A stretch of 56,283 nt of DNA from a virus. The stretch lies in UHGV virus genome UHGV-0315882; one strand, 5' to 3'. The notes below the pieces were generated by a model. It had not been told where the DNA came from. It was given only the letters and a program-made list of their open reading frames with translations, and searched no databases. Below, in pieces: positions 1 to 40,291 of the stretch. The position numbers were made by a program, and so were the translations under genes. Position 1 is the stretch's first letter, and each line of letters begins with the position of its first letter.

Positions 1-15
1 GTTAATAATAGCCAT

Positions 16-116
16 TTTCAGAATCTCCAGTTTAGGACTTTATTTAGTGGGGAAGGTCATTCCCTCCCCGTTGATGTGTAATTTAGCCTATCTAAAAACC
101 AGTGTCAACAAAATTT
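16..116 (-). promoter_or_regulatory. Early-gene cassette type 1: sigma70-like promoter, GC hairpin, RBS
   Basis: Minus strand reads TTGACA (104-109), ~18 bp spacer, TAAATT (80-85), imperfect inverted repeat GGGGAAGG/CCCTCCCC (49-69), GGAGA RBS, then an ATG at 15-13 whose ORF runs off the window. Near-identical copy at 1064-1155. Confidence 0.5.
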
Positions 117-521
117 TTAGAGTTCTGCATAAATTGCATCGCAGATATTACGAAAATCATGACTTGCCAAATTACGTTGCAACCAAGTGGCAAAGAAATC
201 AGCGATTGCAAAATTTGCGTCATACTCGACAGATAACCACACTTTAACAGCAAATCGGAACATTTTCAAATCTAACTCTTTATTCATTACCTTAGATTTG
301 CCTAACATGTCGGCCATTTCATGTTGTGCACCGTCTAGCGTGATACCTGCTGCAACGTCAGTCAATGAGTTTTTTACGCTTTCAACGTCTAAGATAACAC
401 TTTGAATCTTCCCAATAATGTTTTGCAGTGTTTCATCTGGTGCTGATGACGTGATAACATTAATCCGGTTAACGGTCAAACGTGCTTTTAAGATAGATAA
501 CTCACGATTATTAATAGCCAT
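117..521 (-). CDS. hypothetical early protein (134 aa)
   Basis: ORF with GGAGA RBS ~7 nt upstream of ATG, directly downstream of cassette 522-612; no recognisable motif. Confidence 0.55.
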   Translation of the reverse strand: MAINNRELSILKARLTVNRINVITSSAPDETLQNIIGKIQSVILDVESVKNSLTDVAAGITLDGAQHEMADMLGKSKVMNKELDLKMFRFAVKVWLSVEYDANFAIADFFATWLQRNLASHDFRNICDAIYAEL

Positions 522-612
522 TTTTGAATCTCCAATTTAGGATTTAGTGGTAAAGCTCTTTATCTGGGGCTTACTGTACAGACTTATAAGCCCCTTGTAA
601 AGTACTTTATGC
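522..612 (-). promoter_or_regulatory. Early-gene cassette type 2: TTTACA, GGGGCTTA/TAAGCCCC inverted repeat bracketing a TANNNT hexamer, RBS
   Basis: Conserved flanks shared with copies at 1775-1866, 2380-2464, 2759-2847 and 3229-3318; stem 566-573/587-594; minus-strand TTTACA, 17 bp, TACAGT. Confidence 0.5.
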
Positions 613-921
613 TAAATGCAGCTTTTTGCCTTTTACTATGATGTAACTTGATGCGCTATTGCCGCATACATCTTGATAAATTCTACGCAAACGGCCTTTG
701 TAGTATACTTTCCAACTGGTTGGAATCTTTTTCCCGTATCCTGTAGCAGTTTTTTGGAGTCCTGCAACTTGCCAATCCAAAATGTGCTGTTCAGCCCGTA
801 AATCTTCAAAGCACATCACACCGTCTACATAGTGGCGTAGGGTTACGTTTAAGGTGCGACCGTTGTTAGTAGTGTACATTTTTGAATCTCCTAGTTTAAG
901 GACTTTATTTTGACAGTTCAC
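607..921 (-). CDS. hypothetical protein (104 aa)
   Basis: ORF preceded by a degenerate cassette remnant with GGAGA RBS; stop codon embedded in the conserved cassette flank. Confidence 0.5.
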   Translation of the reverse strand: MNCQNKVLKLGDSKMYTTNNGRTLNVTLRHYVDGVMCFEDLRAEQHILDWQVAGLQKTATGYGKKIPTSWKVYYKGRLRRIYQDVCGNSASSYIIVKGKKLHLA

Positions 922-1063
922 TAATTAAGACATCAAAGATTATATCATTATCTGCTACAGTTGCAACACCAGTGATATAATCAATTTCTAAGATAACAAC
1001 AACTTTCGTACATAAACCGTCATCTATATCATTCCAGATAACTTTATCACCTGCACAAAACAT
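905..1063 (-). CDS. small hypothetical protein (52 aa, below the ORF-track threshold)
   Basis: Hand translation MFCAGDKVIWNDIDDGLCTKVVVILEIDYITGVATVADNDIIFDVLISELSK; ATG immediately downstream of a full cassette (1064-1155) with GGAGA RBS. Confidence 0.3.
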   Translation of the reverse strand: MFCAGDKVIWNDIDDGLCTKVVVILEIDYITGVATVADNDIIFDVLISELSK

Positions 1064-1155
1064 TTTAGAATCTCCAGTTTAGGACTTTATTTAGTGGGGA
1101 AGGTCATTCCCTCCCCGTTGATGTGTAATTTAGCCTATCTAAAAATCAGTGTCAA
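1064..1155 (-). promoter_or_regulatory. Early-gene cassette type 1 (second copy)
   Basis: Near-identical to 16-116: TTGACA, hairpin 1096-1116, GGAGA RBS. Confidence 0.5.
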
Positions 1156-1484
1156 TAGTTCTGTTTTCGTTTGCTCAATTCTTGAACAATTACAGCGTAG
1201 TAGTCTTTTAAGTCACTGACATTTAAAGCATTTATCAGAGAATTATAATCATCAACTAACTGGAAATCATCTTTGAAGATGTCACTTATCTGATAGGTTT
1301 TCGCTTTGTATCTGAAGCTCATCTCTAGCCGCTTTATTTGCTCATCGCTTAAACGCTCTAGAAAGCTCATTACAAGGTTATTGCTAACCTGCTGCGTGAT
1401 TGCCTTACTTGCCAGATTATAGGCTTTATATGCCTTATAAAGTGCTATAATGGCTATGATTGCAGTAATGCCAGTTATTAACAT
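1152..1484 (-). CDS. hypothetical membrane protein (110 aa)
   Basis: Strongly hydrophobic N-terminus (LITGITAIIAIIALY); start overlaps the stop of the upstream ORF. Confidence 0.5.
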   Translation of the reverse strand: MLITGITAIIAIIALYKAYKAYNLASKAITQQVSNNLVMSFLERLSDEQIKRLEMSFRYKAKTYQISDIFKDDFQLVDDYNSLINALNVSDLKDYYAVIVQELSKRKQNY

Positions 1485-1774
1485 GGTGTTTCCTCTTTAC
1501 GTGATACCTTGCCACTTACAGATATCTCATAAGACTCTAATAAATCACTTTTAGACTTTACAGGACTTTTAAAAGTATCATCATAAATATTTACTTGCAA
1601 TACAGGTTTTTTATACTCCCTGCAACTATTCCATAAACAAATCACTACACGACGGCCTTTTATTTTGCCGTGTAACCATTCCATAACATCATGACTATTC
1701 CTTGATGTTTCAATGAAATCAATTTTGTTGAGTAATTTGCTCAGATTCTCACGAACATGATTTGATAATTTCAT
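1478..1774 (-). CDS. hypothetical protein (98 aa)
   Basis: ORF with GGAGA RBS, directly downstream of cassette 1775-1866. Confidence 0.5.
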   Translation of the reverse strand: MKLSNHVRENLSKLLNKIDFIETSRNSHDVMEWLHGKIKGRRVVICLWNSCREYKKPVLQVNIYDDTFKSPVKSKSDLLESYEISVSGKVSRKEETPC

Positions 1775-1866
1775 TTTAGAATCTCCTAGTTTAAGGGATT
1801 TATTTGATAAATCTCTTTATCTGGGGCTATCATATCCGCTTGTTAGCCCCGTGTAAAGAAATCTAT
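1775..1866 (-). promoter_or_regulatory. Early-gene cassette type 2 variant
   Basis: Stem GGGGCTA/TAGCCCC (1823-1829/1844-1850); minus-strand TTTACA, 17 bp, TATGAT; GGAGA RBS. Confidence 0.5.
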
Positions 1867-2379
1867 TTAGTTCTTAAAGATATTCATCACTGAATCTTTT
1901 AATGCTTCCAAGCGTTCTGATACTTCAGATTCTGCGTCTGCGTTGTTCACCTCTTCTTTTAGTCTATCCTCTAAATCATCGCCGTCACGATAGCACCAAT
2001 CGAAAGCATAACCAAGATAAAAACTCTCTAAAACCGTGCTACCGTTTGCATCCACAACTTTCGCGGCAAGGTTGTATTCTGAAGCCTCTAAATCTCTTTC
2101 TAGTTCTTTCTGTAAGCTGGTGTAAGCCTCTTTTGATGGGTTTTCCCGGCCTTGTTTTGCATAGTCACTTGAAAGCTGTTTAAGGCTGTAATGTAAAGGG
2201 ATTGCATATTTAAAATCATTACGCTGACAGTTGGGGTTTTTAATAGTCACGCCGCCTTGATGGTCATCTGTAAATTCCCAATTATCAAGATTATGGCTTG
2301 CTTCAAAGCAATTAACTGCTTCGTAAATGATGGAAAATTTTTCTTTTACAACTTCAAAGGTAGCGTCTACAGTTTTCAT
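1867..2379 (-). CDS. hypothetical acidic protein (170 aa)
   Basis: ORF with cassette-borne RBS; no recognisable motif. Confidence 0.55.
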   Translation of the reverse strand: MKTVDATFEVVKEKFSIIYEAVNCFEASHNLDNWEFTDDHQGGVTIKNPNCQRNDFKYAIPLHYSLKQLSSDYAKQGRENPSKEAYTSLQKELERDLEASEYNLAAKVVDANGSTVLESFYLGYAFDWCYRDGDDLEDRLKEEVNNADAESEVSERLEALKDSVMNIFKN

Positions 2380-2464
2380 TTTTGAATCTCCAGTTTAGGA
2401 TTTAGTGGTAAAGCTCTTTATCTGGGGCTTAAGATATCAACTTTTAAGCCCCTTGTAAAGTACT
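2380..2464 (-). promoter_or_regulatory. Early-gene cassette type 2
   Basis: Stem GGGGCTTAA/TTAAGCCCC (2424-2432/2444-2452); TTTACA, 17 bp, TATCTT; GGAGA RBS. Confidence 0.5.
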
Positions 2465-2758
2465 TTATTTGTTAATTTTCAGCTTTGCATAACTTCTCAT
2501 TGTACGAATGGTGGATGTTAATGCTACGCGTCTAATGTATGCCTTTTTCGTGTATACAGTTGTCTTCCCGATAGTGTTTACACATGTAAAAAGGTTTATC
2601 GGTGAATTTTTTAACTTCAACTGTTTATCAGCCTTCACGCCCCACCTTACAGCAGATTGTTTTCCGTTGTCAACCACTTTTCCGCATAACTTTTTAGCCA
2701 TAACGCGAGCGTCATCACGAGTTTTTGCAGCAATTACAACGTTTTTGATAATAGCCAT
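2465..2758 (-). CDS. hypothetical basic protein (97 aa)
   Basis: ORF after cassette 2759-2847; N-terminus MAII resembles that of ORF 117-521 (MAIN). Confidence 0.5.
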   Translation of the reverse strand: MAIIKNVVIAAKTRDDARVMAKKLCGKVVDNGKQSAVRWGVKADKQLKLKNSPINLFTCVNTIGKTTVYTKKAYIRRVALTSTIRTMRSYAKLKINK

Positions 2759-2847
2759 TTTTTAGTTCTCCAATTTAGGATTTAGTGGTAAAGCTCTTTA
2801 TCTGGGGCTTACTTTATCGAACTATAAGCCCCTTGTAAAGTACTTTA
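2759..2847 (-). promoter_or_regulatory. Early-gene cassette type 2
   Basis: Stem 2804-2811/2825-2832; loop identical to the copy at 3229-3318. Confidence 0.5.
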
Positions 2848-3228
2848 TCAGTTAATTTTGAAAATTGTCACATATCCGTCACTGCCGATTATTTGAGATA
2901 CTCCAGCTTTTTCCACTGAATAGCCCATATTTTCAAGATGATAAACAGCATCATCATAACCATATGCGCCACCCTGATAACGTCTCTTATCGCATCTTAT
3001 CAGGTTTTTACCACGTCCTGCAAGTGCATTCAGTACAGCTTTTTCACTTGATAGCATACCATCTAACATGGTTGCCGTGTAATGGTTGATTCTATTCCCA
3101 TTTACATCATACTTAAAATTGAATGCGTGAACAACGATAATGTTACCTTTAAAATTTTCATCAAGTGACTTCTCCAGTGCGTTGCGAAAGTTGTCTTTGT
3201 TGATGAATTTAGGTGCACGATATGCCAT
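2848..3228 (-). CDS. hypothetical protein (126 aa)
   Basis: ORF with cassette-borne RBS. Confidence 0.55.
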   Translation of the reverse strand: MAYRAPKFINKDNFRNALEKSLDENFKGNIIVVHAFNFKYDVNGNRINHYTATMLDGMLSSEKAVLNALAGRGKNLIRCDKRRYQGGAYGYDDAVYHLENMGYSVEKAGVSQIIGSDGYVTIFKIN

Positions 3229-3318
3229 TTTTGAATCTCCTAGTTTAAGGGTTATTTAGTAAAGCTCTTTATCTGGGGCTTACTTTATCGAACTATAAGC
3301 CCCTTGTAAAGTACTTTA
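3229..3318 (-). promoter_or_regulatory. Early-gene cassette type 2
   Basis: Stem 3275-3282/3296-3303; loop identical to the copy at 2759-2847. Confidence 0.5.
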
Positions 3319-3525
3319 TTAGATATCGTAGTAATAAACTGCTGTCTGTCTTATGTGCTTTCTTGTATTTCTTGTAAGGTAGCAATTAGAATTAATAGCC
3401 GTTTCTACATAGTTGCAGTAGTCAGCTTCTGATATTCTGGACCATGCGCCACATACTTGCATGTAAAAACGTTTTACCTTTGTGTTAACGTTAGTTGTAA
3501 CCATCAATTCACGACTATAAAGCAT
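3319..3525 (-). CDS. hypothetical protein (68 aa)
   Basis: ORF with GGAGA RBS after cassette 3526-3606. Confidence 0.45.
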   Translation of the reverse strand: MLYSRELMVTTNVNTKVKRFYMQVCGAWSRISEADYCNYVETAINSNCYLTRNTRKHIRQTAVYYYDI

Positions 3526-3606
3526 TTTCGATTCTCCAGTTTAGGAAGTGGGCTTGCTTGCCCGTCTGATGCAAATATTAGATAACCATACTCAAAGAGT
3601 CAATAG
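3526..3606 (-). promoter_or_regulatory. Early-gene cassette variant (TTGACT, 17 bp, TAATAT, short GGGC/GCCC hairpin, RBS)
   Basis: Same architecture as type 1 with a different, weaker hairpin (3550-3563). Confidence 0.4.
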
Positions 3607-3780
3607 GAATTTTAAAAATATTTTTGGCAAAAATGTAATGAAACGGGTGCGCGCGACTACCACAAAACAGAACTACAATCAAGAATTATTTTTCAATCCG
3701 CTACAAATTTTTCTGTTGACTTTTATTTCCAGATGTGGTAGCCTTGTGAGAAATGGCGACATCCCCACCTGCACCCACCT

Positions 3781-3963
3781 ACCTGCACAATTCTAAAATG
3801 ATTTTTCTTGCCCGACCTGATTTTTCTCTGCACGTTTTGAAAATGAAAAAGCTCTTTGGAGATTACCTGCACAGTTTGAAAATGAATTTTCTCTTTGGAG
3901 TTCAAAATTTTCTCTACAGATTTCTCTATAGAAATATACCTGCACAATTCTGAAATGAAAAAG
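3781..3963. repeat. Four direct copies of a ~22-26 bp motif in noncoding DNA
   Basis: Copies at 3781-3802, 3827-3851, 3865-3886, 3938-3963 (ACCTGCACA[A/G]TT[C/T]T[A/G]AAATGA); CTCTTTGGAG also occurs twice. Confidence 0.6.
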
Positions 3964-4031
3964 CCCTCCTTACCTGAAAAATTTACCAGATAAGAAAGGC
4001 TTAGTCTATTGTGAATATCCTACGAAGTTTC

Positions 4032-4817
4032 TTAGTTCTTTGCGTCTAAGAAGGTAAGCTCTGGTGAAGAGAAAACCGTCTCGATATCCTCATCAGTTCT
4101 TGCATAGATGTAAGCATCTGCATCACTGCCAAATGTTACTGCAATCCTGTGATTGCTCTTCGACAGGTGGGTAACTAGAGCGTTACTTAGAGACATCTTT
4201 TCAACCGGAGGGTTACTTTGATGTATCTTGCCTTTTCTTCGTCTGAAGAGGGTAACTACATCATTAGTGAACACTACTACACCAGCAAAGTATTCTGGTT
4301 CACAGTAGTTCTTCCAACCTGAGCGTAACTTGTGGTACATCTCTCCTTCATAGACATACAGATACACATCTACACTCTTCATCACCTGATTAATGATGAC
4401 TGTGACGGCTTGAGAGTCTAGTCCACCGATACCTGCACCAATCATAGGTAACCCAACTTTCTTCAACTGATTGACTTCACAGTATCTGTTAAGTTGTTTC
4501 AAAGATGATTCTAAAGCACTGTATCGGGCATCTTTACCAGTCTTAAGCTGAGTGTAAAGGTTAGCTATACGGCCTTGTTCTAAACGTGCTACAGAGAAAT
4601 TGCCTAGTAAATTTTCACAGGGTTTGTGACCTATGCCACCTGCATACAGATAAACTTCTGTATCGGTCTCATATGCTTTTGGGTAAAGTTTAGAAATCTT
4701 GTCAGCGATACCTGCACCCATTAAGTTCATACAGTTGCAACCGTGACCAATGATATCAAACTTACCTTTATCAAATGCGGAGAAGATATCCCCATTGATG
4801 ATTTTTACAATACCCAT
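4032..4817 (-). CDS. TARG1/OARD1-like macrodomain protein with unknown C-terminal domain (261 aa)
   Basis: N-terminal ~150 aa carry GDIF...HGCNCMNLMGAGIA...LPMIGAGIGGLD, matching TARG1-type macrodomain hallmarks recalled from memory; GGGAGAGA RBS. Confidence 0.6.
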   Translation of the reverse strand: MGIVKIINGDIFSAFDKGKFDIIGHGCNCMNLMGAGIADKISKLYPKAYETDTEVYLYAGGIGHKPCENLLGNFSVARLEQGRIANLYTQLKTGKDARYSALESSLKQLNRYCEVNQLKKVGLPMIGAGIGGLDSQAVTVIINQVMKSVDVYLYVYEGEMYHKLRSGWKNYCEPEYFAGVVVFTNDVVTLFRRRKGKIHQSNPPVEKMSLSNALVTHLSKSNHRIAVTFGSDADAYIYARTDEDIETVFSSPELTFLDAKN

Positions 4818-6324: not shown

Positions 6325-6340
6325 TTAACAATCTCCTGAA

Positions 6341-6366
6341 ATGAAAAAGGCTCCCGAAGGAGCCTG
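6341..6366 (-). terminator. Intrinsic terminator
   Basis: GGCTCC-cgaa-GGAGCC stem-loop followed by a T-run on the minus strand. Confidence 0.6.
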
Positions 6367-8073: not shown

Positions 8074-8132
8074 TGGTTCTCCTGTTTAGTTTATCGTGAC
8101 AACAATTATACAGCACTCTGCACAAAATACAA

Positions 8133-8162
8133 ATAAAAAAGGCCGCCGAAGCAGCCTTTTAA
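8133..8162 (-). terminator. Intrinsic terminator
   Basis: Imperfect GC stem (GGCCGC/GCAGCC) flanked by A6 and T4 runs. Confidence 0.5.
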
Positions 8163-14131: not shown

Positions 14132-15028
14132 TTAATCAAGGTTTGCTACAGTAACTTGGCTATAATGTGTTAAGCCACGGTCTTTAGCTTCCCCTAAAGA
14201 GTTTGTAGTGTAGATATGGTCAATACCATTGTCAAGAAGGTTTTCAACATCTTTAGAGAAGATACCATGTGTTACATAGAGTTCCACTCGTTTTGCACCT
14301 GCTTCACGAAGATGTTTAGCTGCTTCTATGAAGGTTCGTCCTCCATCACAAATATCATCCAGAATCATGACGGTTTTATCTGTCAAATCAACATCGTCAA
14401 GGATTCGCATACCAGTGATTTCACCAGTCTTGAGGTTGCGTACTTTAGACATTGTGATATATGGTTTATCCACCTCTTTAGCGGTTTCTGCAACCTTCTT
14501 AGCAGCACCTGCATCTGGGGCCACTAAGTAATCAACCAGTGGGTCATTTGCATAGTGGACTGCAATCTCCTTTTGAGGAATACTCTGGAAGCAGTTAAAC
14601 AGGTTATCTGGAACGTAACTGTGAGGGTCAACTGCACAGACTGCACCAAACCCCATTGCATTAACCTGTTTAGCAAAAACCTTCAAAGCTGCTGCATCGC
14701 CTTTAAACATGTGACGGTCATATCGTGCATTTGGTAAGTAGTAAAAGATGACAGTCTTTAAAGCATAATCATGAGGAATTAAATCATCAATTGCTTCTTT
14801 AGCAAGTGCTACAGCAAACAATGTGTCTTTATCATAACCTTTTACAATCATAATCACATTGTTGATGGATGATGCAGCATAAGCAGTAAAATCAACAAAC
14901 TCTGGTGAAAAGTGTCCACCAATCTCACCAGAAGGAAATTGGATGATGTTAAACTCTTCTTCATGAGTTCCTTTAGTTGGTGAATGAACTGTAACACGTA
15001 TAGATGTTTTCATAATTTTCTCTCTCAA
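14132..15028 (-). CDS. Ribose-phosphate pyrophosphokinase (Prs) family protein (298 aa); PRPP synthetase or ADPR-PP synthetase (Adps)-like
   Basis: Type I PRTase/PRPP-binding motif VMILDDICDGGRTF; size fits Prs. Confidence 0.8.
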   Translation of the reverse strand: MREKIMKTSIRVTVHSPTKGTHEEEFNIIQFPSGEIGGHFSPEFVDFTAYAASSINNVIMIVKGYDKDTLFAVALAKEAIDDLIPHDYALKTVIFYYLPNARYDRHMFKGDAAALKVFAKQVNAMGFGAVCAVDPHSYVPDNLFNCFQSIPQKEIAVHYANDPLVDYLVAPDAGAAKKVAETAKEVDKPYITMSKVRNLKTGEITGMRILDDVDLTDKTVMILDDICDGGRTFIEAAKHLREAGAKRVELYVTHGIFSKDVENLLDNGIDHIYTTNSLGEAKDRGLTHYSQVTVANLD

Positions 15029-15303
15029 TCAAAAGTTACGTTAGTTACTGCCATTGCAGACTTGCATTTCACAGGGTCTACAACGTGATAAAGTACACTA
15101 CAGTTTCCTGTACTATCTGGCACAGGCTTTACCCATTGCTGTTTGACAGTTGGTTCTCCTAAGTCTTTGTAAGAACCATCTGTATAATTATTTACCATCT
15201 CAAGTGCAATTGGCTCTGGGACATGACCACGTATCATGTACATTTCACAACCATTACCACCTTCACTGACTAATGATAAAATCTCCCACTTTTCTTTAGC
15301 CAT
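15025..15303 (-). CDS. hypothetical protein (92 aa)
   Basis: ATGA overlap with the upstream gene. Confidence 0.5.
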   Translation of the reverse strand: MAKEKWEILSLVSEGGNGCEMYMIRGHVPEPIALEMVNNYTDGSYKDLGEPTVKQQWVKPVPDSTGNCSVLYHVVDPVKCKSAMAVTNVTFD

Positions 15304-15811
15304 TGTAAGTTGCCCTATAAACTATCTCGAACTTCAACAGGAGAGATATTGCCAAATCTGTATAGTTGTTGTCAAGCACATCTGGCATATTATTTTTGAT
15401 ATATCTCTCTTGCTCTTCATAGGTCATCTTAGGGGTACTTAAAAGACTATCTCCTTGCTTCTGGTTATCAGCTTTAGTCTGAATAAACCAGTTTGTACAG
15501 TGATGTTCACCACCTTTTGTAACAGGTTTGTGGTGGCCTAATGTGAAGGATTGACTGCCTGTGTATCTGCAAAGTTTATTGAGTACTGTAATGGTGTTCT
15601 TCACAACAAAGCATTCATACAGGTTGTCTATGGTGTAGTGTGGGTAATATCGAAATAATGCTCTTTCACGAGTACTCTCACGATTCCAGAGAATCATGTG
15701 ATTGGAGTTGGAAGGGTCGTATTGGTGGGAGTCAATGAACTCTTGACGTTCCTCAAAACTGAGTCTTAACACTGACATTGCAGCAGAACGTTTCAGATTT
15801 GACAGATACAT
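15296..15811 (-). CDS. hypothetical protein with possible HNH-nuclease-like motif (171 aa)
   Basis: GHHKPVTKGGEHHCTNW...KADN resembles an HNH core (HH, GG, N); weak. Confidence 0.35.
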   Translation of the reverse strand: MYLSNLKRSAAMSVLRLSFEERQEFIDSHQYDPSNSNHMILWNRESTRERALFRYYPHYTIDNLYECFVVKNTITVLNKLCRYTGSQSFTLGHHKPVTKGGEHHCTNWFIQTKADNQKQGDSLLSTPKMTYEEQERYIKNNMPDVLDNNYTDLAISLLLKFEIVYRATYNG

Positions 15812-15823
15812 ATTATCTCCAAA

Positions 15824-15852
15824 ATAAAAAGGGAACCTTTACAGTTCCCTTA
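15824..15852 (-). terminator. Intrinsic terminator
   Basis: GGGAAC-ctttaca-GTTCCC followed by a T-run on the minus strand. Confidence 0.6.
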
Positions 15853-15862
15853 TAGTATCTGC

Positions 15863-16183
15863 TTACTGAGCTACTTTCAAGATTCTTGTGAATGGAATTT
15901 CACTTTCTTCCATTAACTCTTTAGTTTCTTTGGTAACTTTCACAAAGTTATCTAGGCAGATAATCTTCTTATCTTTCTTGCTATAGGTTAATTTAACCTT
16001 TTCAATATCTTTCTCAGAGCTTTTCTCTTCATTGAAGAGTTTTACAGCCTCTTTGAATGGGAGATATGAGCCATCATTATCACTAATGAATCCTGTACCA
16101 CAATAGTAGGAGTTATGCTCTCTAGCCATAAACTGGCACAGTAAGAAAATCTGTAATTTACGAGTGTTATAAACTTTGCTCAT
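15863..16183 (-). CDS. hypothetical protein (106 aa)
   Basis: ORF followed by a terminator. Confidence 0.5.
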   Translation of the reverse strand: MSKVYNTRKLQIFLLCQFMAREHNSYYCGTGFISDNDGSYLPFKEAVKLFNEEKSSEKDIEKVKLTYSKKDKKIICLDNFVKVTKETKELMEESEIPFTRILKVAQ

Positions 16184-16185
16184 GA

Positions 16186-16452
16186 TTATTTAGCCTTCTT
16201 ATTACGTTTACGGTTACGAGCTTTCTTAGCTGCTCGTTTAATAGCTGCTGCACCAGACGGACGGTGGGCTTGTTTCTTACCACCTTTGCCACGGCCTACA
16301 TAGATGTAAGGCTGCTGTTCAATTTGGCTTGTAAGAACCTGTGCAACCGCTGAAGCATCTACACCGACCTGCTTTCCAGTCATAGAAACAATTGCTGCTG
16401 CTTTTGCCAGTGCCTTCAAGAATCCGGCTTTCATATTACCTAAAATTCCCAT
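16186..16452 (-). CDS. hypothetical protein with highly basic C-terminus (88 aa)
   Basis: C-terminal KRAAKKARNRKRNKKAK; possible nucleic-acid binding. Confidence 0.45.
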   Translation of the reverse strand: MGILGNMKAGFLKALAKAAAIVSMTGKQVGVDASAVAQVLTSQIEQQPYIYVGRGKGGKKQAHRPSGAAAIKRAAKKARNRKRNKKAK

Positions 16453-28943: not shown

Positions 28944-29221
28944 GATATTCTCCGATATACTTGATATTCAAACACATTTTCTTTCATTATAAACAGCCAA
29001 CCAATATTATGTTCAGGTATAGTAATAGTGACTGTGATAATACTGTGATGGAACTTTTCTTCTACCTCAACGCCACCATCACATTTCATGTAGAGCATTC
29101 TATAGAACCTATCAATCTTTGTCAAACACTCTTCCTGAAATTTATTTAAACTTTTTTCTTCAAAGAAGGGTGTGAACCCCTCTCTTTTATAACTATCACT
29201 CAGTTTCGAATGGGCAGTCAT
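28940..29221 (-). CDS. hypothetical protein (~93 aa)
   Basis: Start placed at the ATG with GAGGA RBS; overlaps the 3' end of the primase-helicase gene. Confidence 0.4.
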   Translation of the reverse strand: MTAHSKLSDSYKREGFTPFFEEKSLNKFQEECLTKIDRFYRMLYMKCDGGVEVEEKFHHSIITVTITIPEHNIGWLFIMKENVFEYQVYRRIS

Positions 29222-31187
29222 CTGCATCCTCACTTAATACAGGTGGAATCGTTGAGCTTTGACGCTGCTCTTCAGTATAGACTTCACCAGTCTCACGGTC
29301 AAATACTTCATCCTCATAATGTGGCAAAGAGTCATCGTAATGGTCTTCAGCTTCACCAATACCAAACTGTTGGCGAATATTTTCTGCTGCGCCATCAATG
29401 TCAACTCCACAACCAGATGCTTTAATGAGACGCCCTGTATCTGGATTGTACCAAGTATGACCAGCAATACCCGTTGACTTACCGTGACGACGACATTTAG
29501 TTAACTTGATTTTTGTCAAGTTTTTCTTAACAGGGTCTGGGTCAACCTTGTTACGCATTAACAAAATATTATTCATGGAAATCTGGAAATACGCACCAGA
29601 ACCCTTGATATCCTCTTCAGAGATATCCCCACCTTCAGAGTTAGCTTTCTGACCACCTGCACTCTTACGAACGTGACATACGTTTACCTGCGCATACTGG
29701 TAGCGTTTGCAACGACGCAATAGCTCAGACAAAACTTCCTCTTCATCCGTATCTGAACGTGACAGAGCTAACGTGATAGGGTCAAGAATGATAATCTTGC
29801 AATCTAAACTGTTAACAAGATAGTCAACAAATTCCAGCAGGTTATCTTGGTCAATTGCCCCTTGATGGTCAACGATGTGGATACGACGACCTTTAGACAG
29901 TTCTGCGTGTGCCCCTTTTAGTTCATCCCAATCACGTTCGTCATAAGGAATCTCAGAAATCTGCTTGCTCAGGTGGATTGCACAGAGCATTTCCATAAGT
30001 TCTTCGTAAGTATCTTCTACAGGAATTACACCGATATTATAATCAGTTTCTTTCCAAGCTGAATAAATCATCTCACGAGTATAAGCTGACTTACCTACTG
30101 AAGATGGTGCTGCAATAGTTGTAATCTCACCCAAACCATAACCACCGTAAGTCAGTCTGTTCAAATCCCCGAAAGATTCTGGGAAAGGAATCAATGGAAT
30201 CTGACCACGATTCTTCATTGCCTCAAAACCATCTGCAAAGTTCTTGATACCAGCAGGGCAATAACGAGGTGCGTTGTAGATACGCTGCTTAAATCCTTCC
30301 AGAACTGTGTCTTTCTCTTTATAGAACTTTGTCCACCATTCGTTAAGGTCTTTTACACCCTCTGGATACTGGAATAAACGAACCTTCTCAATAGGTAAGA
30401 TACCAGCAGCCTCTTTGGTAGCTTTAGCACCTGCTTCATCGTTATCAAAGCACAAGTAAATTTCATCAAATGATGTGATGTACTGATAGTTATCTTTGAT
30501 AGACTTGATGTTTGCACCTGACGGAACAGATACATGACAGTAATTCTTACGACGAGATTTGTCCTTAATCGCAAGAGAAGTCATATAGATTGCTGTCGCA
30601 CATTCCATCTCACCTTCCCAGATGAATAGACGGTTACCACCTTCTGGAGCAATCCATGAACCGAACATTGCCAGTTCACCTTTAATGTCTCCAACACCAC
30701 CAGAAAAGTCTTTTAACTTACCTCGTAGGTGCTCTTTTGGATGGTCTTCTGGGTAACGGTGACGAACACGGTAGCCAACATGCTCTAGCTTGCCATCTTC
30801 ATTGCGTTTGTAAGTTGGGTAGAAATGCGCGTCAATTTCACCATCACTGTCAATGTCAACCTTAATACCCAAACGCTCAAGAACTTTTGCAGGAATCTTC
30901 CTGTCTTTCAAGTCCATTGCTTCAAGGTTTTCTTTTACATCGTCTAAATCCATTCCACGGAAAGTACGGTTTTTATTGTCTGAACCAGTAGAATAAGTGC
31001 TCACAATTTGTCCTTTATCAAAATCCCACTCTGGGAAACCTTTGTTACAACTAAAGCAAGTCATCGAATAAGAATCATCGTCATGATGATAGATTGAACC
31101 AGCATCTGATGAACCACAACGTGGACATGCACAATGACCAATAAACTGACCAGCCTCTTTCAATTTACGACCTTTAGACATTAGCAC
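29196..31187 (-). CDS. DNA primase-helicase (T7 gp4-like)
   Basis: N-terminal Cys4 zinc ribbon (CACPRCG...CFSC) and C-terminal DnaB-like Walker A (AAPSSVGKSAYT); 663 aa. Confidence 0.85.
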   Translation of the reverse strand: MLMSKGRKLKEAGQFIGHCACPRCGSSDAGSIYHHDDDSYSMTCFSCNKGFPEWDFDKGQIVSTYSTGSDNKNRTFRGMDLDDVKENLEAMDLKDRKIPAKVLERLGIKVDIDSDGEIDAHFYPTYKRNEDGKLEHVGYRVRHRYPEDHPKEHLRGKLKDFSGGVGDIKGELAMFGSWIAPEGGNRLFIWEGEMECATAIYMTSLAIKDKSRRKNYCHVSVPSGANIKSIKDNYQYITSFDEIYLCFDNDEAGAKATKEAAGILPIEKVRLFQYPEGVKDLNEWWTKFYKEKDTVLEGFKQRIYNAPRYCPAGIKNFADGFEAMKNRGQIPLIPFPESFGDLNRLTYGGYGLGEITTIAAPSSVGKSAYTREMIYSAWKETDYNIGVIPVEDTYEELMEMLCAIHLSKQISEIPYDERDWDELKGAHAELSKGRRIHIVDHQGAIDQDNLLEFVDYLVNSLDCKIIILDPITLALSRSDTDEEEVLSELLRRCKRYQYAQVNVCHVRKSAGGQKANSEGGDISEEDIKGSGAYFQISMNNILLMRNKVDPDPVKKNLTKIKLTKCRRHGKSTGIAGHTWYNPDTGRLIKASGCGVDIDGAAENIRQQFGIGEAEDHYDDSLPHYEDEVFDRETGEVYTEEQRQSSTIPPVLSEDADDCPFETE

Positions 31188-33424: not shown

Positions 33425-33681
33425 GTAAGCCTCTTTTAAGTAACTATTAAGTTTTAATCTTTTATCTTAACGTATTCTATACGTTATACTTTAAAGCTTT
33501 TTAAAAGCTATTAAATAATCTTTTAAGAGTTTTAAAGTATCTGTATAGTTAAACTGTTAAGTAACCTTTTAAGTAAAAACCCACTTCGCAAAGATTAACA
33601 CCTTGTCAAGTGCATTGTCAACTTGCTTTTTATAATTTTTTGCAGTAATGTATGAGGTTAATGATTTTAGAGGGAGTAAAA
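33425..33681. promoter_or_regulatory. AT-rich divergent control region
   Basis: Consensus TATAAT at 33631-33636 upstream of the polymerase ATG; repeated CTTTTAAG/TTTAAAG motifs; small inverted repeat ACGTAT/ATACGT (33471-33486). Confidence 0.45.
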
Positions 33682-36381
33682 ATGGAAAACGTAGATTTTA
33701 AAAACTTACATTTGGTTGGTGATACAGAAACTGATGGTTTACTCCTTGAGTTCACTAAAGTGCACGTAATGGCTTTCGCAGACTATAAATCTGACGATGA
33801 AGAGCCACCTGTATGGGTCTTTACAGATGAACCTATCCTCGGTCACAAGTATACCAAGTACATTAAGGGTGGCTTACGTGAAGGTGTTGAATTTGCGTTA
33901 AAGGCAAAACGTCTTTGCATCCATAATGGTCTCGGTTATGACTGGTGGGTTTTCAATCACATTGCACCTGATTTGTGGAACTTTGATAATCCAAAATGTA
34001 AGCCGTGGAGTAATTTCTTTCAGGATTCTCTTATCCAGTCTCGTGTTCAGTGGATGGATAGACCAACTCCAAAGGGCTATAAAGGTGCTCATGGTTTGGC
34101 TGCATGGGGTGCTCGTGTTGGTGTTCGTAAACCAGAGATTGAACATTGGGGTGTGTGGAATGCAGAAATCTTCACTCGTGTTGTAGAAGATATCCGTATT
34201 AACGCCAAAACTAAACGGGCGCTTGATAATGAATATCTCAAGCTTAAGAAGTGTGGCATAGACACTTATGAAACCTACATGCGAGCTAAAGAAACATCTT
34301 TCTGGATGAGTCAACAAGCTATCAATGGCTGGAAAGCTGATAAAGAGCTTATGGAGTTCCATGTAAAGGAACTTGACAAGTTGACTAATGAGCTTGCTTC
34401 AGAGGTTGAACCACATCTACCTCCAACTATTAAGACCAAAGGTAAAGTAACTGGTGAAGAGTTTGCAAAGGCTTGGAATGAGTATGTTGAAACATTTGGT
34501 CATGCAGATGGGTTGAAGAGAATCACCAAGTATCCTAAGACGAAGTACCGTCAACAGGTGCGTAACGGTGAGATGCAGACATACGAAATCAAACCATTTG
34601 GTAAGCCAACTACAAAGATTTTTAACATTGAAAAGAGAAATTGCTATACACCAACCAACTCTGTAACTGGTGAAGAGTACAAGGAAGGCTTTGTAGCAAT
34701 GAAGGATGCTCGTGCAATTTGCAATGAGTTGAATGCAAAGATTGGTAAGAAATGCAAAGACTGGAAGCCAGTGAAAACAGTCAAAACTGTGAAGTACTAT
34801 AACAGTCACGTTGTTAACCACTTTGAACTTGAGTCAAGTCGATACACAGGTTTGATTGATGCACCATATACACCAATTGATTTTGAAGTTTCTCGTATGA
34901 CTCAGGTAGCAGTTGTTAAAGACTACTTGAAATCAGTTGGTTGGATTCCAGATGACTGGAACTACAAGAAAGACTCAGATGGTCGCCCTGTCAAAGTTTG
35001 TCGTTTCAAAGACAATAAAAAGATGATTACAAAACATCCTAAGTGGCAGGAAATGGTTGAGCGGTGTGGTTTGAGCTATGTTGAACATGAAGGTGTACAG
35101 TACATTGAACATAACTGGTCTGTGAAGAAGTACACAGATTTGCTTGAGCCTTGCTTAATCCGTACTTCACCAAAGCTTACTGAGTCATCTTATGATACGA
35201 TTGAAGGTGAACTTGGACAGAAGATTGCTAAGTACTATACTTTGATGCACCGACGCAGAACTATTGAGAACTCAAAGGATGATGAAAAAGGTTGGTTGAA
35301 CCAGATTCGTCCTGATGGTCGCCTTAGTGCTGGTGCAATGGTGTTTGGTACTTCAACTGGACGTATGACACAATATGGTATTGTAAACGTACCGTCTGGT
35401 GCTGCTGTCTATGGGGAACCAATGAGGGCAGTGTGGATTTGTGAGGAAGGTACTAACGTTGTCTCTGTAGATATGAACTCAGCCCAGCTAGTTCTACTTT
35501 GTAACTTTATGGGTGATAAAGACTTCACCAAAGCGGTAACGCAAGGTAAAGAAGAAATTGAGTTCATTCGTCAAGAAGATGGACGCTATTACTGCAAACA
35601 CTTTGATGAGTACCTCAACCCAGAGATTGATAAGTACCTTCGCTATGACTCTGAGAATGACCTGTACGTTGTCTATTCAGGGACTGATGCACATACACTG
35701 AACAGTATTTACTTTAGCTTGAATGATGAGCAGGACATCTTGACTTGTCGAGCTACTCAGGATGAGAATCTTCTTCATGAGATTAGCAAAGGTCGTAAGA
35801 AAGCTAAGAATGGTATCTATGCACTGCTGTTCGGTGCAGGTGATGAGAAGTTTGCTAAGACGATTAAAGCTGCGACTACTCAGGAAGGTGCGCTGACTAA
35901 ACAGACTTACTTTATACGTTTGCCTAAAATTAAGAAGCTACTAGATGACTTGGAAGCTGACTACAAAGCAACTAAAAAGGCACTTGAAGAGGTGTTTGGT
36001 AAGACTGCTGCAATCTCTAAAGGGGGTTTTGTAAAGGTTGCTGGAGCTTGGTTGTGGTGTAAATCTCCACATAAGTTATTGAATTATTTGCTTATGGGTT
36101 CGGAAAGTCAGATTCAGAACGAGGCAATTAACCTTGCTTGCCGTCGTATGATTGACGAAGGTTTGATGAAGTTGAACGGTCGCAAACCCGCTATAGGTGC
36201 TCGTTTATTGTGCTCCTATCACGACGAGACAAGTTGGGAATGCCCAGAAAGTATGACGGCAGAGGTGAAGGCTGTTACTGATTGGTATTACGGGCAAGCC
36301 TCTAAGAACTTAGGACTAAAAAGTGAAACACTGGTAACTGGTACTGGTAAGGTTGGCAAATCGTGGTTGGAAGTGCATTAA
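33682..36381 (+). CDS. DNA polymerase, family A (T7-like) with 3'-5' exonuclease domain
   Basis: Start trimmed to MENVDF with GAGGGAG RBS; Exo I DTETDG; motifs resembling pol A motif A (VDMNSAQL), motif B (KNGIYALLFG) and motif C (YHDE). Confidence 0.85.
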   Translation: MENVDFKNLHLVGDTETDGLLLEFTKVHVMAFADYKSDDEEPPVWVFTDEPILGHKYTKYIKGGLREGVEFALKAKRLCIHNGLGYDWWVFNHIAPDLWNFDNPKCKPWSNFFQDSLIQSRVQWMDRPTPKGYKGAHGLAAWGARVGVRKPEIEHWGVWNAEIFTRVVEDIRINAKTKRALDNEYLKLKKCGIDTYETYMRAKETSFWMSQQAINGWKADKELMEFHVKELDKLTNELASEVEPHLPPTIKTKGKVTGEEFAKAWNEYVETFGHADGLKRITKYPKTKYRQQVRNGEMQTYEIKPFGKPTTKIFNIEKRNCYTPTNSVTGEEYKEGFVAMKDARAICNELNAKIGKKCKDWKPVKTVKTVKYYNSHVVNHFELESSRYTGLIDAPYTPIDFEVSRMTQVAVVKDYLKSVGWIPDDWNYKKDSDGRPVKVCRFKDNKKMITKHPKWQEMVERCGLSYVEHEGVQYIEHNWSVKKYTDLLEPCLIRTSPKLTESSYDTIEGELGQKIAKYYTLMHRRRTIENSKDDEKGWLNQIRPDGRLSAGAMVFGTSTGRMTQYGIVNVPSGAAVYGEPMRAVWICEEGTNVVSVDMNSAQLVLLCNFMGDKDFTKAVTQGKEEIEFIRQEDGRYYCKHFDEYLNPEIDKYLRYDSENDLYVVYSGTDAHTLNSIYFSLNDEQDILTCRATQDENLLHEISKGRKKAKNGIYALLFGAGDEKFAKTIKAATTQEGALTKQTYFIRLPKIKKLLDDLEADYKATKKALEEVFGKTAAISKGGFVKVAGAWLWCKSPHKLLNYLLMGSESQIQNEAINLACRRMIDEGLMKLNGRKPAIGARLLCSYHDETSWECPESMTAEVKAVTDWYYGQASKNLGLKSETLVTGTGKVGKSWLEVH

Positions 36382-40078: not shown

Positions 40079-40291
40079 ATGGCTCTTAAAAAGTTACATC
40101 CCAGAAGCGGTTATGGTAAGATAATTGACGATACAGACGGCTTTACAGTCTTTACAGTCATCTGTCAAGATGATTCACAGATTGAGAAGGCTCTTGATGA
40201 TTATCTCAACGATGAACGTGAAAAGGTTAGGGCTACAAACATAGATTCATTGATTGACACTTCACGCAAACGGAAGAAGAAAGATGAATGA
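40079..40291 (+). CDS. hypothetical protein (70 aa)
   Basis: ORF in tight plus-strand array. Confidence 0.45.
   Translation: MALKKLHPRSGYGKIIDDTDGFTVFTVICQDDSQIEKALDDYLNDEREKVRATNIDSLIDTSRKRKKKDE

What the first reader, a model, noticed from the sequence alone, without database searches (positions are those of the whole stretch)
3766..3963. Noncoding array of four direct repeats between the cassette region and the macrodomain gene
Four copies of a ~22-26 bp motif (ACCTGCACA[A/G]TT[C/T]T[A/G]AAATGA) lie within 200 bp in a ~500 bp intergenic region; two copies are followed by CTCTTTGGAG. The ORF-track hits here are repeat-driven. Iteron-like repeats at the boundary of an early region could be a replication origin, a binding array for a regulator, or repeated promoter or processing sites.
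Basis: seen in the sequence. Interest (0 to 1): 0.55.

Follow-up and report, generated by a model that had tools for sequence, protein, structure and literature searches.

The report
Conserved four-repeat DNA array in Felix O1-like phages
Four same-direction copies of an 18-base motif, each followed by a run of A or T, sit in a gene-free gap of a Felix O1-type phage and are kept in every related phage genus examined, so they almost certainly do something (most likely bind a protein on the DNA), but what they do has never been described or tested.

Summary
Four + strand copies of TGCAC-N3-T-N2-R-AAATGA start at 3784, 3829, 3868 and 3941, in the 506-bp gap between the macro-domain gene terminator and the first sigma-70 promoter of the small-gene cassettes. 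The motif occurs nowhere else in the window or in a complete 87.6-kb relative.

The window is a Felixounavirus. All four Ounavirinae genera keep three or four copies at the same place and in the same orientation, although the neighbouring macro protein is only 33% identical between the extremes. Same-rank copies are about 95% identical between genomes; copies within one genome are about 65% alike.

Rejected or unsupported:
- coding sequence
- tandem promoters or tandem terminators
- structured RNA, ToxI or CRISPR mimicry
- DnaA boxes in this phage
- a genome terminus or pac site

Best reading: an array of oriented protein-binding sites in bent duplex DNA (about 0.6). This rests on the A5/T5 strand swap and on the highest A/T-tract density in the window. 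Its role is unresolved. I lean to a transcription-activated origin-type element (about 0.3), ahead of an operator or roadblock array (0.2) and a non-coding RNA (0.2). No binding protein was identified, and two other repeat-rich regions compete as origin candidates. The element appears undescribed.

The parts
3781..3815 (+). Unit 1. Core TGCACAATTCTAAAATGA at 3784-3801, then T5 (3802-3806) and the tail CTTGCCCGAC.
   Evidence: Its tail is 83% identical to unit 2 of Kolesnikvirus.
3826..3861 (+). Unit 2. Core TGCACGTTTTGAAAATGA at 3829-3846, then A5 and the tail GCTCTTTGGAG.
   Evidence: The G at core position 6 and the TC in front of the core are specific to this unit across genomes.
3865..3900 (+). 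Unit 3. Core TGCACAGTTTGAAAATGA at 3868-3885, then ATTTT and the tail CTCTTTGGAG.
3938..3963 (+). Unit 4. Core TGCACAATTCTGAAATGA at 3941-3958, then A5. Its AAATGAAAAAG is the complement of the U-tract of the macro-gene terminator.
   Evidence: The fusion with the terminator persists even where the hairpin sequence differs, as in the Si3 type.
3766..3777 (+). Head-only fragment CCACCTGCACCC without an AAATGA half. It is not a full unit.
   Evidence: D4. It is present only in the 'type W' variant of this segment.
3901..3937 (.). The 73-bp gap between units 3 and 4. It holds a decayed tail-only copy (AATTTTCTCTACAGA), the 12-nt doublet TTTCTCTACAGA/TTTCTCTATAGA, and a 10-bp hairpin on the minus strand at 3911-3934.
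   Evidence: D7, D12, I8. Its sequence is not conserved in Mooglevirus.
3951..4002 (-). Intrinsic terminator of the macro-domain gene: 17-pair stem 3961-4002, then TTTTTCATTT. The G-U pairs form only in the minus-strand RNA.
   Evidence: Annotated as a terminator in the relatives ASO1A and AYO145A.
3716..3744 (+). Candidate outward-facing sigma-70 promoter P+: TTGACT (3716-3721), 17-nt spacer, TG (3736-3737), TAGCCT (3739-3744). It points into the array.
   Evidence: Read directly from the sequence. The scan tool did not report it because the second hexamer is weak. The -35 hexamer and the AT-rich block upstream are conserved in three genera, but the -10 is TAAGAG in 'type G' relatives. Kolesnikvirus has a strong, conserved TTGACG-18-TATACT in the same orientation.
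3664..3725 (.). Conserved non-coding block AAAACAGAAC...TCAAGAATTATTTTTCA...ACAAATTTTTCTGTTGACTTTT, nearly invariant in Felixounavirus, Suspvirus and Mooglevirus.
3575..3603 (-). Sigma-70 promoter TTGACT-17-TAATAT with an AT-rich upstream element. It is the first promoter of the small-gene cassette region and drives the 68-aa ORF 3319-3525.
   Evidence: Annotated as a promoter in ASO1A. AGTCAA is invariant in all genera.
4032..4817 (-). Macro-domain ('phosphatase', Tk.4-like) gene. It is the conserved right-hand neighbour of the array.
   Evidence: synteny.

Best explanation
The array works as duplex DNA. It is four individually conserved, same-orientation recognition sites for a sequence-specific DNA-binding protein that has not been identified. 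Each site has two fixed blocks, TGCAC and AAATGA, about one helical turn apart across an A/T-rich spacer of restricted composition. Each site is followed by a 5-bp A- or T-tract that bends the DNA. Occupying the four sites would build a bent nucleoprotein complex between the terminator of the long rIIA-to-macro operon and the first early promoter. For the job of that complex I commit to an iteron-type cis element for starting DNA replication. In this model the outward-facing host-RNAP promoter P+ transcribes into the array, opens it or supplies an RNA primer, and the phage's T7/SP6-like primase-helicase and family A polymerase then load. What is shown: the repeats, their uniqueness, their deep conservation, the strand-symmetric A5/T5 swap, the peak in A-tract density, and the surrounding transcription signals. 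What is inferred: protein binding, bending, the use of P+, and any link to replication. I put about 0.6 on the general claim of a DNA-level protein-binding array and about 0.3 on the origin role.
For: 1. The array is real and unique. Four copies lie in 175 bp against 0.44 expected in 56 kb. No other copy exists in the complete 87.6-kb genome of UAB_Phi87.

2. It is deeply conserved. There are four copies (three in the Si3 type) at the same syntenic place and in the same orientation in Felixounavirus, Suspvirus, Mooglevirus and Kolesnikvirus. About 290 of roughly 300 Ounavirinae records hold it. The flanking macro protein is only 33% identical between the window and phiEa21-4. In 64 distinct units, nine core positions never vary and two more vary in at most 3 units.

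3. Each unit is constrained on its own. Same-rank units are 94-97% identical between genomes, against 65-75% between units of one genome.

4. The constraints are those of a duplex. The tract after the core is either A5 or T5, a swap that preserves an A-tract in double-stranded DNA but not an RNA sequence. The spacer positions are restricted to R-D-W-Y-Y-K-R. The array has the highest A4+/T4+ tract density of the whole window, 11-12 per 186 bp against a mean of 2.45.

5. The context fits an origin. The array is non-coding. A promoter points into it and has no conserved ORF downstream. Most relatives carry a G-rich homopurine mirror repeat between that promoter and unit 1. From general knowledge, such a tract in the transcript favours stable RNA-DNA hybrids, as at ColE1-type origins. 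The replisome is T7-like, with Toprim and DnaB_C domains. From general knowledge, such replisomes start from a promoter followed by A/T-rich DNA.
Against: No protein has been shown or predicted to bind the array. Apart from the macro domain, the neighbouring genes have no recognisable domains, and the gene to the left is not even conserved between genera. The one XRE-type HTH protein in the window was not detected in Kolesnikvirus.

Several points argue specifically against an origin:
- No initiator gene is recognisable.
- From general knowledge, T7-type origins need no iterons.
- Spacings of 37-75 bp are irregular and are not kept in helical phase between genera.
- The array is not the least stable DNA. 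The divergent gap next to the polymerase gene, at 33425-33651, is the least stable.
- A 1.6-kb ORF-poor region with 20 or more TAACAAG repeats in a relative is a stronger-looking origin candidate.
- GC skew shows no break at the array.
- The -10 element of P+ is poor in most Felixounavirus genomes.
Confidence: 0.3

Rival explanations
1. The array is an operator or roadblock. A phage or host protein bound at the four oriented sites acts on transcription rather than replication. It could reinforce the macro-gene terminator and insulate the early cassettes from read-through of the 30-kb upstream operon. It could also gate the outward promoter P+ and the early promoter at 3575-3603.
For: The array lies exactly between a terminator and the first early promoter. 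Unit 4 overlaps the terminator's U-tract in three genera, so a bound protein would meet RNA polymerase at the release point. All sites face the same way, as polar barriers do. How these phages time their transcription is unknown (PMC3185647).
Against: The motif occurs at only one locus, although the cassette region has many promoters of its own. In Kolesnikvirus the last unit is not fused to the terminator. The sites lie about 180-380 bp upstream of the early promoter's -35 hexamer. No regulator has been identified, and the HTH_3 protein does not share the array's phylogenetic distribution.
Confidence: 0.2
2. The functional product is a + strand non-coding RNA transcribed from P+ through the array. 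Its repeated UGCAC...AAAUGA modules would bind or titrate a protein or an RNA, for example as a sponge or as a decoy for an AAAU-cutting toxin such as type III ToxN.
For: A promoter points into the array with no ORF behind it. It is strong and perfectly conserved in two Kolesnikvirus lineages, together with a 75-nt leader and a hairpin that carries one compensatory change. It is acceptable in the window: TTGACT, 17-nt spacer, TGgTAGCCT. The unit period of 37-45 nt resembles that of type III antitoxin arrays, and every unit carries AAAU (the antitoxin comparison is from memory).
Against: The + strand RNA folds no better than shuffled sequence: z = +0.55 in the window and -1.1 in phiEa21-4. Rfam gives no hit, even in permissive mode. 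The A5/T5 swap would change an RNA drastically. Units within a genome are only about 65% alike, unlike the near-identical ToxI repeats (ToxI from memory). No toxin gene is present. No related array exists in 185,579 species genomes, 5,426 E. coli genomes or PLSDB plasmids. The -10 element of P+ is poor in most Felixounavirus genomes.
Confidence: 0.2
3. The array is an evolutionary relic: decayed terminator-tail and promoter scars left by recombination between the promoter-terminator cassettes that flank the small early genes. It has no function of its own.
For: The AAATGAAAAAG half of the motif is the complement of a terminator tail, CTTTTTCATTT, that recurs elsewhere at 6337-6348. A lone look-alike follows the rIIB terminator at 8118-8140. 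The adjoining region is a mosaic of cassettes with repeated promoters and terminators. A tail-only decayed copy sits in the 73-bp gap (D7).
Against: Neutral scars would not keep their number, order, orientation and nearly invariant core bases across genera whose neighbouring protein is only 33% identical. Apart from the units and the early promoter's AGTCAA, little of the gap is invariant between the window and phiEa21-4.
Confidence: 0.05
4. The array is a set of tandem sigma-70 promoters (or tandem terminators), one per unit.
For: In phiEa21-4 the scan finds TTGCCA-17-TAAAAT and TTGCCA-17-GAAAAT formed by the tail of one unit and the core of the next. Unit 4 read on the minus strand gives TTTTCA-17-TATATT.
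Against: The scan found no + strand promoter-like site anywhere in 3200-4300 of the window. With spacings of 45, 39 and 73 bp the -35-like tails fall out of register. In the sister Kolesnikvirus lineage TAAAAT becomes TGAAAT. Only one terminator-like hairpin is present.
Confidence: 0.04
5. The array is a cluster of host DnaA boxes that recruits or titrates DnaA.
For: In Kolesnikvirus the unit heads read CTATGCACA, CTATGCACA, TTATGCACG and CTATGCACA. Each is one mismatch from TTATNCACA.
Against: In the window and in all E. coli, Salmonella, Shigella and Citrobacter phages examined the heads read ACCTGCACA or CTCTGCACG, with three or more mismatches. The conserved part extends well beyond a DnaA box, to AAATGA. 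Boxes with at most one mismatch occur at 2.6 per kb in this AT-rich genome.
Confidence: 0.04
6. The array encodes a small protein on the + strand (ORF 3753-3953, or 3797-3953), or it is a packaging or terminus site.
For: Several GenBank records annotate short ORFs across the array. Direct repeats can mark pac or cos sites.
Against: There is no codon periodicity (38/35/38) and the frame is broken in many relatives. No Shine-Dalgarno sequence precedes the ATGs. The ends of UAB_Phi87, determined experimentally, carry a 608-bp direct terminal repeat (PMC4837284). Those ends lie about 22 kb from the array, and the record repeats about 540 nt at both ends.
Confidence: 0.02

Closest known systems
Iteron-type origins (phage lambda ori with four O-protein sites and sequence-directed curvature; plasmid iterons)
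   Same: Four direct repeats of about 18-20 bp in one orientation, adjacent A-tracts and bent DNA, a single locus per genome, and a nearby promoter that could activate the site.
   Different: Unit spacing is 37-75 bp instead of about 20-24 bp. The sites have no dyad symmetry. No initiator gene is recognisable next to the array or around it. The array is not the least stable DNA in the window. The replisome is T7/SP6-like, which is not known to use iterons. (The lambda features are from memory.)
Transcription-primed phage origins (T7 primary origin, T4 oriF/oriG, lactococcal phage c2 ori)
   Same: A promoter fires into non-coding, A/T-rich DNA with no gene behind it. The primase-helicase is T7-like. 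Most relatives have a G-rich tract downstream of the promoter, which would favour an RNA-DNA hybrid.
   Different: Those origins have no conserved multi-copy recognition motif. Here the promoter's -10 element is weak in most relatives, and the G-rich tract is missing from this window.
Type III antitoxin RNA arrays (ToxI) and phage pseudo-ToxI decoys
   Same: Head-to-tail units of about 37-45 nt, a promoter upstream, and an invariant AAAU in every unit.
   Different: The units are only about 65% alike. There is no predicted fold and no Rfam match. There is no toxin gene and no bacterial or plasmid counterpart. The A5/T5 swap is incompatible with a conserved RNA.
Asymmetric operator arrays that block elongation (mycobacteriophage 'stoperators'; polar barriers such as Tus-Ter)
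   Same: Asymmetric sites, all in one orientation relative to transcription, placed in an intergenic gap next to a terminator.
   Different: Stoperators are scattered over many intergenic regions and belong to a repressor of a temperate phage. Here there is one locus in a virulent phage and no known binding protein. (The comparison is from memory.)
Promoter-terminator cassettes that flank small early genes (T4-type 'PeSL' modules)
   Same: The array abuts such a cassette region and shares the terminator-tail sequence CTTTTTCATTT.
   Different: The units lack both a usable hairpin and a usable promoter. Unlike cassette junctions, they are conserved across genera.

Membership tests
Iteron-type replication origin | Three or more direct repeats of about 17-22 bp in one orientation at a single locus | tested here: met
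   Four 18-bp cores, all on the + strand and unique in the genome.
Iteron-type replication origin | Regular spacing, phased with the helix (about two turns) | tested here: not met
   Spacings are 45/39/73, 45/41/75 and 39/37/37 bp in different genera.
Iteron-type replication origin | An adjacent, easily unwound A/T-rich element | tested here: inconclusive
   The array has the highest A/T-tract density in the window. By nearest-neighbour stability it is unremarkable, and the minimum is at 33435-33600.
Iteron-type replication origin | A cognate initiator protein encoded nearby or recognisable in the genome | tested here: not met
   The neighbours have no DNA-binding domains. The replication genes are a T7-like primase-helicase and a family A polymerase only.
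Iteron-type replication origin | Replication initiates there | not testable with these tools
   This needs marker-frequency analysis, 2-D gels or a plasmid-amplification assay.
Transcription-primed origin (T7/T4/c2 type) | A promoter directed into non-coding A/T-rich DNA | tested here: inconclusive
   The promoter is strong in Kolesnikvirus and plausible in the window as TTGACT-17-TGgTAGCCT. In most Felixounavirus genomes the -10 is TAAGAG.
Type III antitoxin (ToxI-like) RNA array | Near-identical tandem repeats of 34-45 nt | tested here: not met
   Units within a genome are 65-75% identical over 37 nt. One spacing is 73 bp. TRF does not report a tandem array.
Type III antitoxin (ToxI-like) RNA array | A structured RNA unit, or a match to the Rfam model | tested here: not met
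   z = +0.55 for the + strand RNA. Rfam gives no relevant hit at E up to 10.
Type III antitoxin (ToxI-like) RNA array | A toxin gene downstream, or a bacterial array that it mimics | tested here: not met
   Downstream on the + strand lies only the antisense of the macro gene. No related array was found in species genomes, E. coli genomes or plasmids.
DnaA-box cluster | Matches to TTATNCACA with at most 1 mismatch | tested here: not met
   Window: no match with up to 1 mismatch, and the unit heads have 3 mismatches. phiEa21-4: four matches with 1 mismatch each.
CRISPR-like mini-array or solitary repeat units | Similarity to host CRISPR repeats, with spacers of about 32 nt | tested here: not met
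The gaps between units are 19-55 nt.
Packaging or terminus site (pac, cos, terminal-repeat boundary) | Lies at or next to the ends of virion DNA | tested here: not met
   The ends of UAB_Phi87 were mapped experimentally (PMC4837284). The array is at 22.15-22.33 kb of that record, which repeats about 540 nt at both ends.
Protein-coding gene | A conserved reading frame with substitutions biased to the third codon position | tested here: not met
   Substitutions by codon position are 38/35/38, against 15/12/20 and 15/14/21 in the two flanking genes. Indels break the frame.
Tandem sigma-70 promoters | -35 and -10 hexamers at 16-18 bp spacing in each unit, conserved between relatives | tested here: not met
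   Found only in phiEa21-4. Absent from the window and lost in the sister lineage.

The most novel reading that the evidence does not exclude
The array is the recognition site of an unrecognised phage protein and defines a new kind of cis element for phages with T7/SP6-like replisomes. It could be an iteron-plus-initiator origin in a lineage thought to need none. Alternatively it could be a DNA-level decoy or anchoring site that the whole subfamily needs to take over or evade the host, comparable in principle to DNA-based anti-defence elements such as aba of phage BTP1.
Probability: 0.12. Interest if true: 0.75.

Novelty: new member of a known kind. Interest (0 to 1): 0.5.

Why it matters
Felix O1-type phages are classic Salmonella typing phages and are widely used in biocontrol and therapy. 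Their replication origin and the way they time their transcription are both unknown (PMC3185647). This array is more strongly conserved than the protein-coding gene beside it, so it is one of the few concrete handles on their cis-acting biology. Finding its binding partner would reveal an origin, a switch or a host-interaction site. People who engineer or shrink these genomes (for example Bas63, used in PhageMaP, PMC11482910) should know that the gap is probably not dispensable spacer and that the ORFs annotated across it in many GenBank records are spurious.

Tried and rejected
- **Coding sequence.** Rejected: no codon periodicity, and the frame is broken in relatives.
- **Tandem promoters or terminators.** Rejected: scans of the window, FO1a and phiEa21-4 do not agree with each other.
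- **Structured RNA.** Not supported. RNA folds of both strands in two genera show that only the minus-strand terminator and one local hairpin stand out.
- **Rfam.** Nothing at gathering threshold over the whole window, and nothing relevant in permissive mode on the locus. No tRNA genes in the window.
- **A bacterial or plasmid counterpart.**
  - The two-unit pattern scan of 185,579 species genomes gave only three unrelated tandem repeats.
  - BLAST against 5,426 E. coli genomes found nothing.
  - BLAST against PLSDB found nothing relevant.
- **The same motif in other viruses.** Strict and relaxed pattern scans of IMG/VR returned, besides unrelated tandem repeats in other viral contigs, only 84-94 kb and shorter contigs carrying the same array. 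Phages outside the subfamily that have a macro-domain homologue lack the array.
- **DnaA boxes.** Rejected for this phage.
- **Terminus or pac site.** Rejected from the published ends.
- **A neighbouring gene as binding partner.** No DNA-binding domains in the neighbours, and the left neighbour is not conserved. The only HTH protein found does not track the array into Kolesnikvirus.
- **GC skew.** No break at the array.
- **Literature.** The Felix O1 genome paper lists other repeats but not these. No transcriptome, start-site or origin study of this subfamily was found. The Bas63 PhageMaP library picked its guides per gene, gave no readout for this gap that I could find, and has no supplement held.
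- **Pectobacterium phages.** I did not resolve whether the few with a distant polymerase homologue carry an array.
Full report
**What is there.** The window is a Felix O1-like myovirus of the genus Felixounavirus. Its best matches are E. coli phages JLBYU28 and warpig, at about 96% identity. Around the finding all genes run on the minus strand.
- The macro-domain ('phosphatase', Tk.4-like) gene occupies 4032-4817 (Pfam Macro).
- It ends in a strong intrinsic terminator: stem 3961-4002, then TTTTTCATTT.
- A 506-bp gap follows.
- A sigma-70 promoter, TTGACT-17-TAATAT at 3575-3603, then drives the first small gene of the cassette region (3319-3525).

Inside the gap, on the opposite (+) strand, lie four copies of an 18-nt core in fixed register, TGCAC-N3-T-N2-R-AAATGA. 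They start at 3784, 3829, 3868 and 3941. Chance expectation is 0.02-0.44 hits per 56 kb.

**Anatomy of a unit.** I collected 64 distinct unit sequences from about 35 loci.
- Core positions 1-5 (TGCAC) and 13-18 (AAATGA) are invariant or nearly so.
- The seven positions between them are restricted to R-D-W-Y-Y-K-R.
- The next five bases are either A5 or T5/ATTTT.
- Then comes C and a pyrimidine-rich tail, such as CTCTTTGGAG or CTTGCCCGAC.

The A5/T5 alternative is a strand-symmetric swap. It preserves an A-tract in duplex DNA but would rewrite an RNA. The array also has the highest density of A4+/T4+ tracts in the whole window: 11-12 per 186 bp against a mean of 2.45, with the maximum at 3793. 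In unit 4, AAATGAAAAAG is the complement of the terminator's U-tract. The same tail, CTTTTTCATTTC, follows another terminator at 6337-6348.

**Conservation.** The same place holds the same kind of array, always downstream of the macro-gene terminator and antisense to the flanking genes, in four genera:
- Felixounavirus (spacings 45/39/73 bp)
- Suspvirus (45/39/73)
- Mooglevirus (45/41/75)
- Kolesnikvirus phages of Erwinia, Hafnia and Salmonella (39/37/37)

There are four copies everywhere except a Si3-type variant with three. About 290 of roughly 300 Ounavirinae records in the phage collection match the gap. Between the window and phiEa21-4 the macro protein is only 33% identical, 48% at the nucleotide level. 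Apart from the units and the early promoter's AGTCAA, little of the gap is invariant between them. Same-rank units are 94-97% identical between genomes, whereas units within one genome are 65-75% alike. Each copy is therefore held in place individually; the copies are not homogenised. Unit 1 here corresponds to unit 2 of Kolesnikvirus (83% identity). The two lineages thus appear to have gained or lost units at the ends while both keeping four.

**Uniqueness.**
- A complete relative, UAB_Phi87 (87.6 kb), has no second array. It has only a lone weak look-alike after the rIIB terminator, which corresponds to window 8118-8140.
- Pattern scans of IMG/VR found the motif only in 84-94 kb and shorter contigs carrying the same array, that is Ounavirinae; the other hits were unrelated tandem repeats.
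- Scans of one genome per bacterial species, of all complete E. coli genomes and of PLSDB plasmids found nothing related.
- Other phages with macro-domain genes lack the array.

**Readings that fail.**
- *Coding.* Substitutions show no codon periodicity (38/35/38, against a clear third-position excess in both flanking genes). Spacings that are not multiples of three break the frame in relatives. No ribosome-binding site precedes the ATGs. The short ORFs annotated here in several GenBank records disagree with one another.
- *Tandem promoters.* Only phiEa21-4 gives TTGCCA-17-TAAAAT/GAAAAT across unit junctions. The window gives no + strand hit, and the sister Kolesnikvirus lineage has TGAAAT.
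- *Tandem terminators.* Only one terminator-like hairpin is present.
- *Structured RNA.* The + strand RNA folds no better than shuffled sequence (z = +0.55 here, -1.1 in phiEa21-4). The minus-strand signal (z = -2.45) comes from the terminator and a local hairpin at 3911-3934, which is not conserved in Mooglevirus.
- *Known RNA families.* Rfam gives nothing.
- *DnaA boxes.* The Kolesnikvirus heads (CTATGCACA) are one mismatch from TTATNCACA. The heads in this window (ACCTGCACA) have three mismatches.
- *Terminus or pac site.* UAB_Phi87 has experimentally mapped ends with a 608-bp terminal repeat (PMC4837284). Its record repeats about 540 nt at both ends, and the array lies 22 kb inside it.

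**Context that bears on mechanism.** Upstream of unit 1 on the + strand is a block that is nearly invariant in three genera. It ends in TTGACT (3716-3721) and is preceded by AT-rich DNA. In the window this is followed, after 17 nt, by TG and TAGCCT. That makes a plausible extended -10 promoter, P+, pointing into the array. Most relatives instead have TAAGAG inside a perfect homopurine mirror repeat, GGGGAGAGGGGGAG-TAA-GAGGGGGAGAGGGG. Kolesnikvirus has a strong TTGACG-18-TATACT promoter in the same orientation. Two of its lineages share that promoter unchanged, together with a 75-nt leader and a hairpin carrying one compensatory G-C to A-U change. The replisome is T7/SP6-like: a Toprim + DnaB_C primase-helicase at 29196-31187 and a family A polymerase at 33652-36381. 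No initiator or other DNA-binding protein is recognisable near the array. The only HTH protein found (40284-40583) is not detectable in Kolesnikvirus.

**Best explanation and its limits.** Four properties are what one expects of recognition sites in duplex DNA:
- a bipartite fixed core about one helical turn long
- a restricted spacer
- a strand-symmetric A/T tract
- individual conservation of four oriented copies

I therefore read the array as a cis-acting platform that binds and bends around a sequence-specific protein (about 0.6). For its job I lean to an origin-type element activated by transcription from P+ (about 0.3). The reasons are that unique intergenic iteron arrays in phages are most often origins, that a promoter with no gene behind it points into the array, and that T7-like replisomes start from a promoter followed by A/T-rich DNA (the last two points rest on general knowledge).

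The case is weak, for these reasons:
- The spacing is irregular.
- There is no initiator gene.
- The array is not the least stable DNA; that is the gap at 33425-33651 beside the polymerase gene.
- UAB_Phi87 has, just outside this window, a 1.6-kb ORF-poor region packed with TAACAAG repeats at 11-bp spacing.
- GC skew shows no break at the array.

An operator or roadblock role at the boundary between terminator and promoter (0.2) and a + strand non-coding RNA (0.2) remain open. A functionless relic (0.05) is unlikely given the conservation.

**Comparison with known systems.** The array resembles lambda-type and plasmid iterons in copy number, unit length, orientation and associated bending. It fails their spacing and initiator criteria. 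It resembles T7, T4 and c2 transcription-primed origins in having a promoter aimed into non-coding A/T-rich DNA, but those origins have no repeated recognition motif. It resembles ToxI arrays only in unit period and in carrying AAAU. I file it as a new member of the broad class of phage direct-repeat (iteron-like) arrays, not as a member of any named family.

**Novelty.** I found no description of the element. The Felix O1 genome paper lists other repeats (24 bp or longer) but not these. No origin, start-site or transcriptome study of the subfamily turned up. The finding is real and biologically meaningful, but its mechanism is open, so I give it moderate interest.

Noticed in passing
L010 (UAB_Phi87) 14600-16250, about 2-4 kb left of where this window begins: A stretch of about 1.6 kb, almost free of ORFs, holds 20 or more copies of (C)TAACAAG. 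Many are at 11-bp spacing (for example 15675-15703) and they occur in inverted sets (15190-15315 against 15719-15760). GCTTTTAAGG repeats are also present. It is a second, larger repeat-rich non-coding region and a rival candidate for the origin or a regulatory centre.
   Followed up: partly
window 33425-33651: The divergent gap between a 140-aa ORF (-) and the DNA polymerase gene (+) is the least stable DNA of the window. It carries CTTTTAAGTAAC three times (33433, 33554, 33566) and a 27-nt inverted repeat (33486-33540). GC skew changes sign here.
   Followed up: partly
L009 (FO1a) about 1395-1430; the same place in L001, L004-L006 and L020: Most relatives carry, just upstream of unit 1, a perfect homopurine mirror repeat, GGGGAGAGGGGGAG-TAA-GAGGGGGAGAGGGG, which is an H-DNA or G-quadruplex type motif. 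This window has an unrelated segment there (3722-3780) that is C-rich on the + strand. Two discrete variants of this segment circulate within Felixounavirus.
   Followed up: partly
window 8118-8140 (+): A lone look-alike of the motif, CTGCACAAAATACAAATAAAAAAGG, lies directly after the rIIB terminator (8137-8160, -). It overlaps a minus-strand TTGTAT-16-TATAAT promoter. It may be chance or a distant relative of unit 4.
   Followed up: partly
window 1-3330 (for example 80-108, 1127-1155 and 3253-3325): The small-gene region is built from cassettes with repeated promoters (TTGACA-17-TAAATT, twice) and repeated terminator hairpins, such as the 30-nt inverted repeat at 3253-3325. These correspond to the 39-bp and 57-bp repeats listed in the Felix O1 genome paper.
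   Followed up: no
L030 (IMG/VR contig 3300045988_004180), upstream of unit 2: The contig end joins the phage array to GC-rich sequence that looks like E. coli mukB, at a 10-bp microhomology (CCCGACCTGA). This is probably a chimeric metagenome assembly.
   Followed up: no
window 40284-40583 (+): An XRE-type HTH_3 protein of 99 aa is annotated as a 'transcriptional regulator' or 'phage repressor' in relatives. It is present in Felixounavirus, Suspvirus and Mooglevirus but was not detected in Kolesnikvirus.
   Followed up: partly
window 33652-36381 compared with relatives: The DNA polymerase gene is intact here (909 aa). In many relatives it is split into two pieces by an inserted homing endonuclease (HNH or endonuclease VII) gene.
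   Followed up: no
L003 (phiEa21-4) 1326-1460: Between the strong + strand promoter and the array, Kolesnikvirus has a conserved 75-nt leader, a tail-only fifth unit (TGAAAATGATACTGCTGCCGG), and a hairpin GCCGGA...TTCGGC that carries one compensatory G-C to A-U change in a sister lineage.
   Followed up: partly
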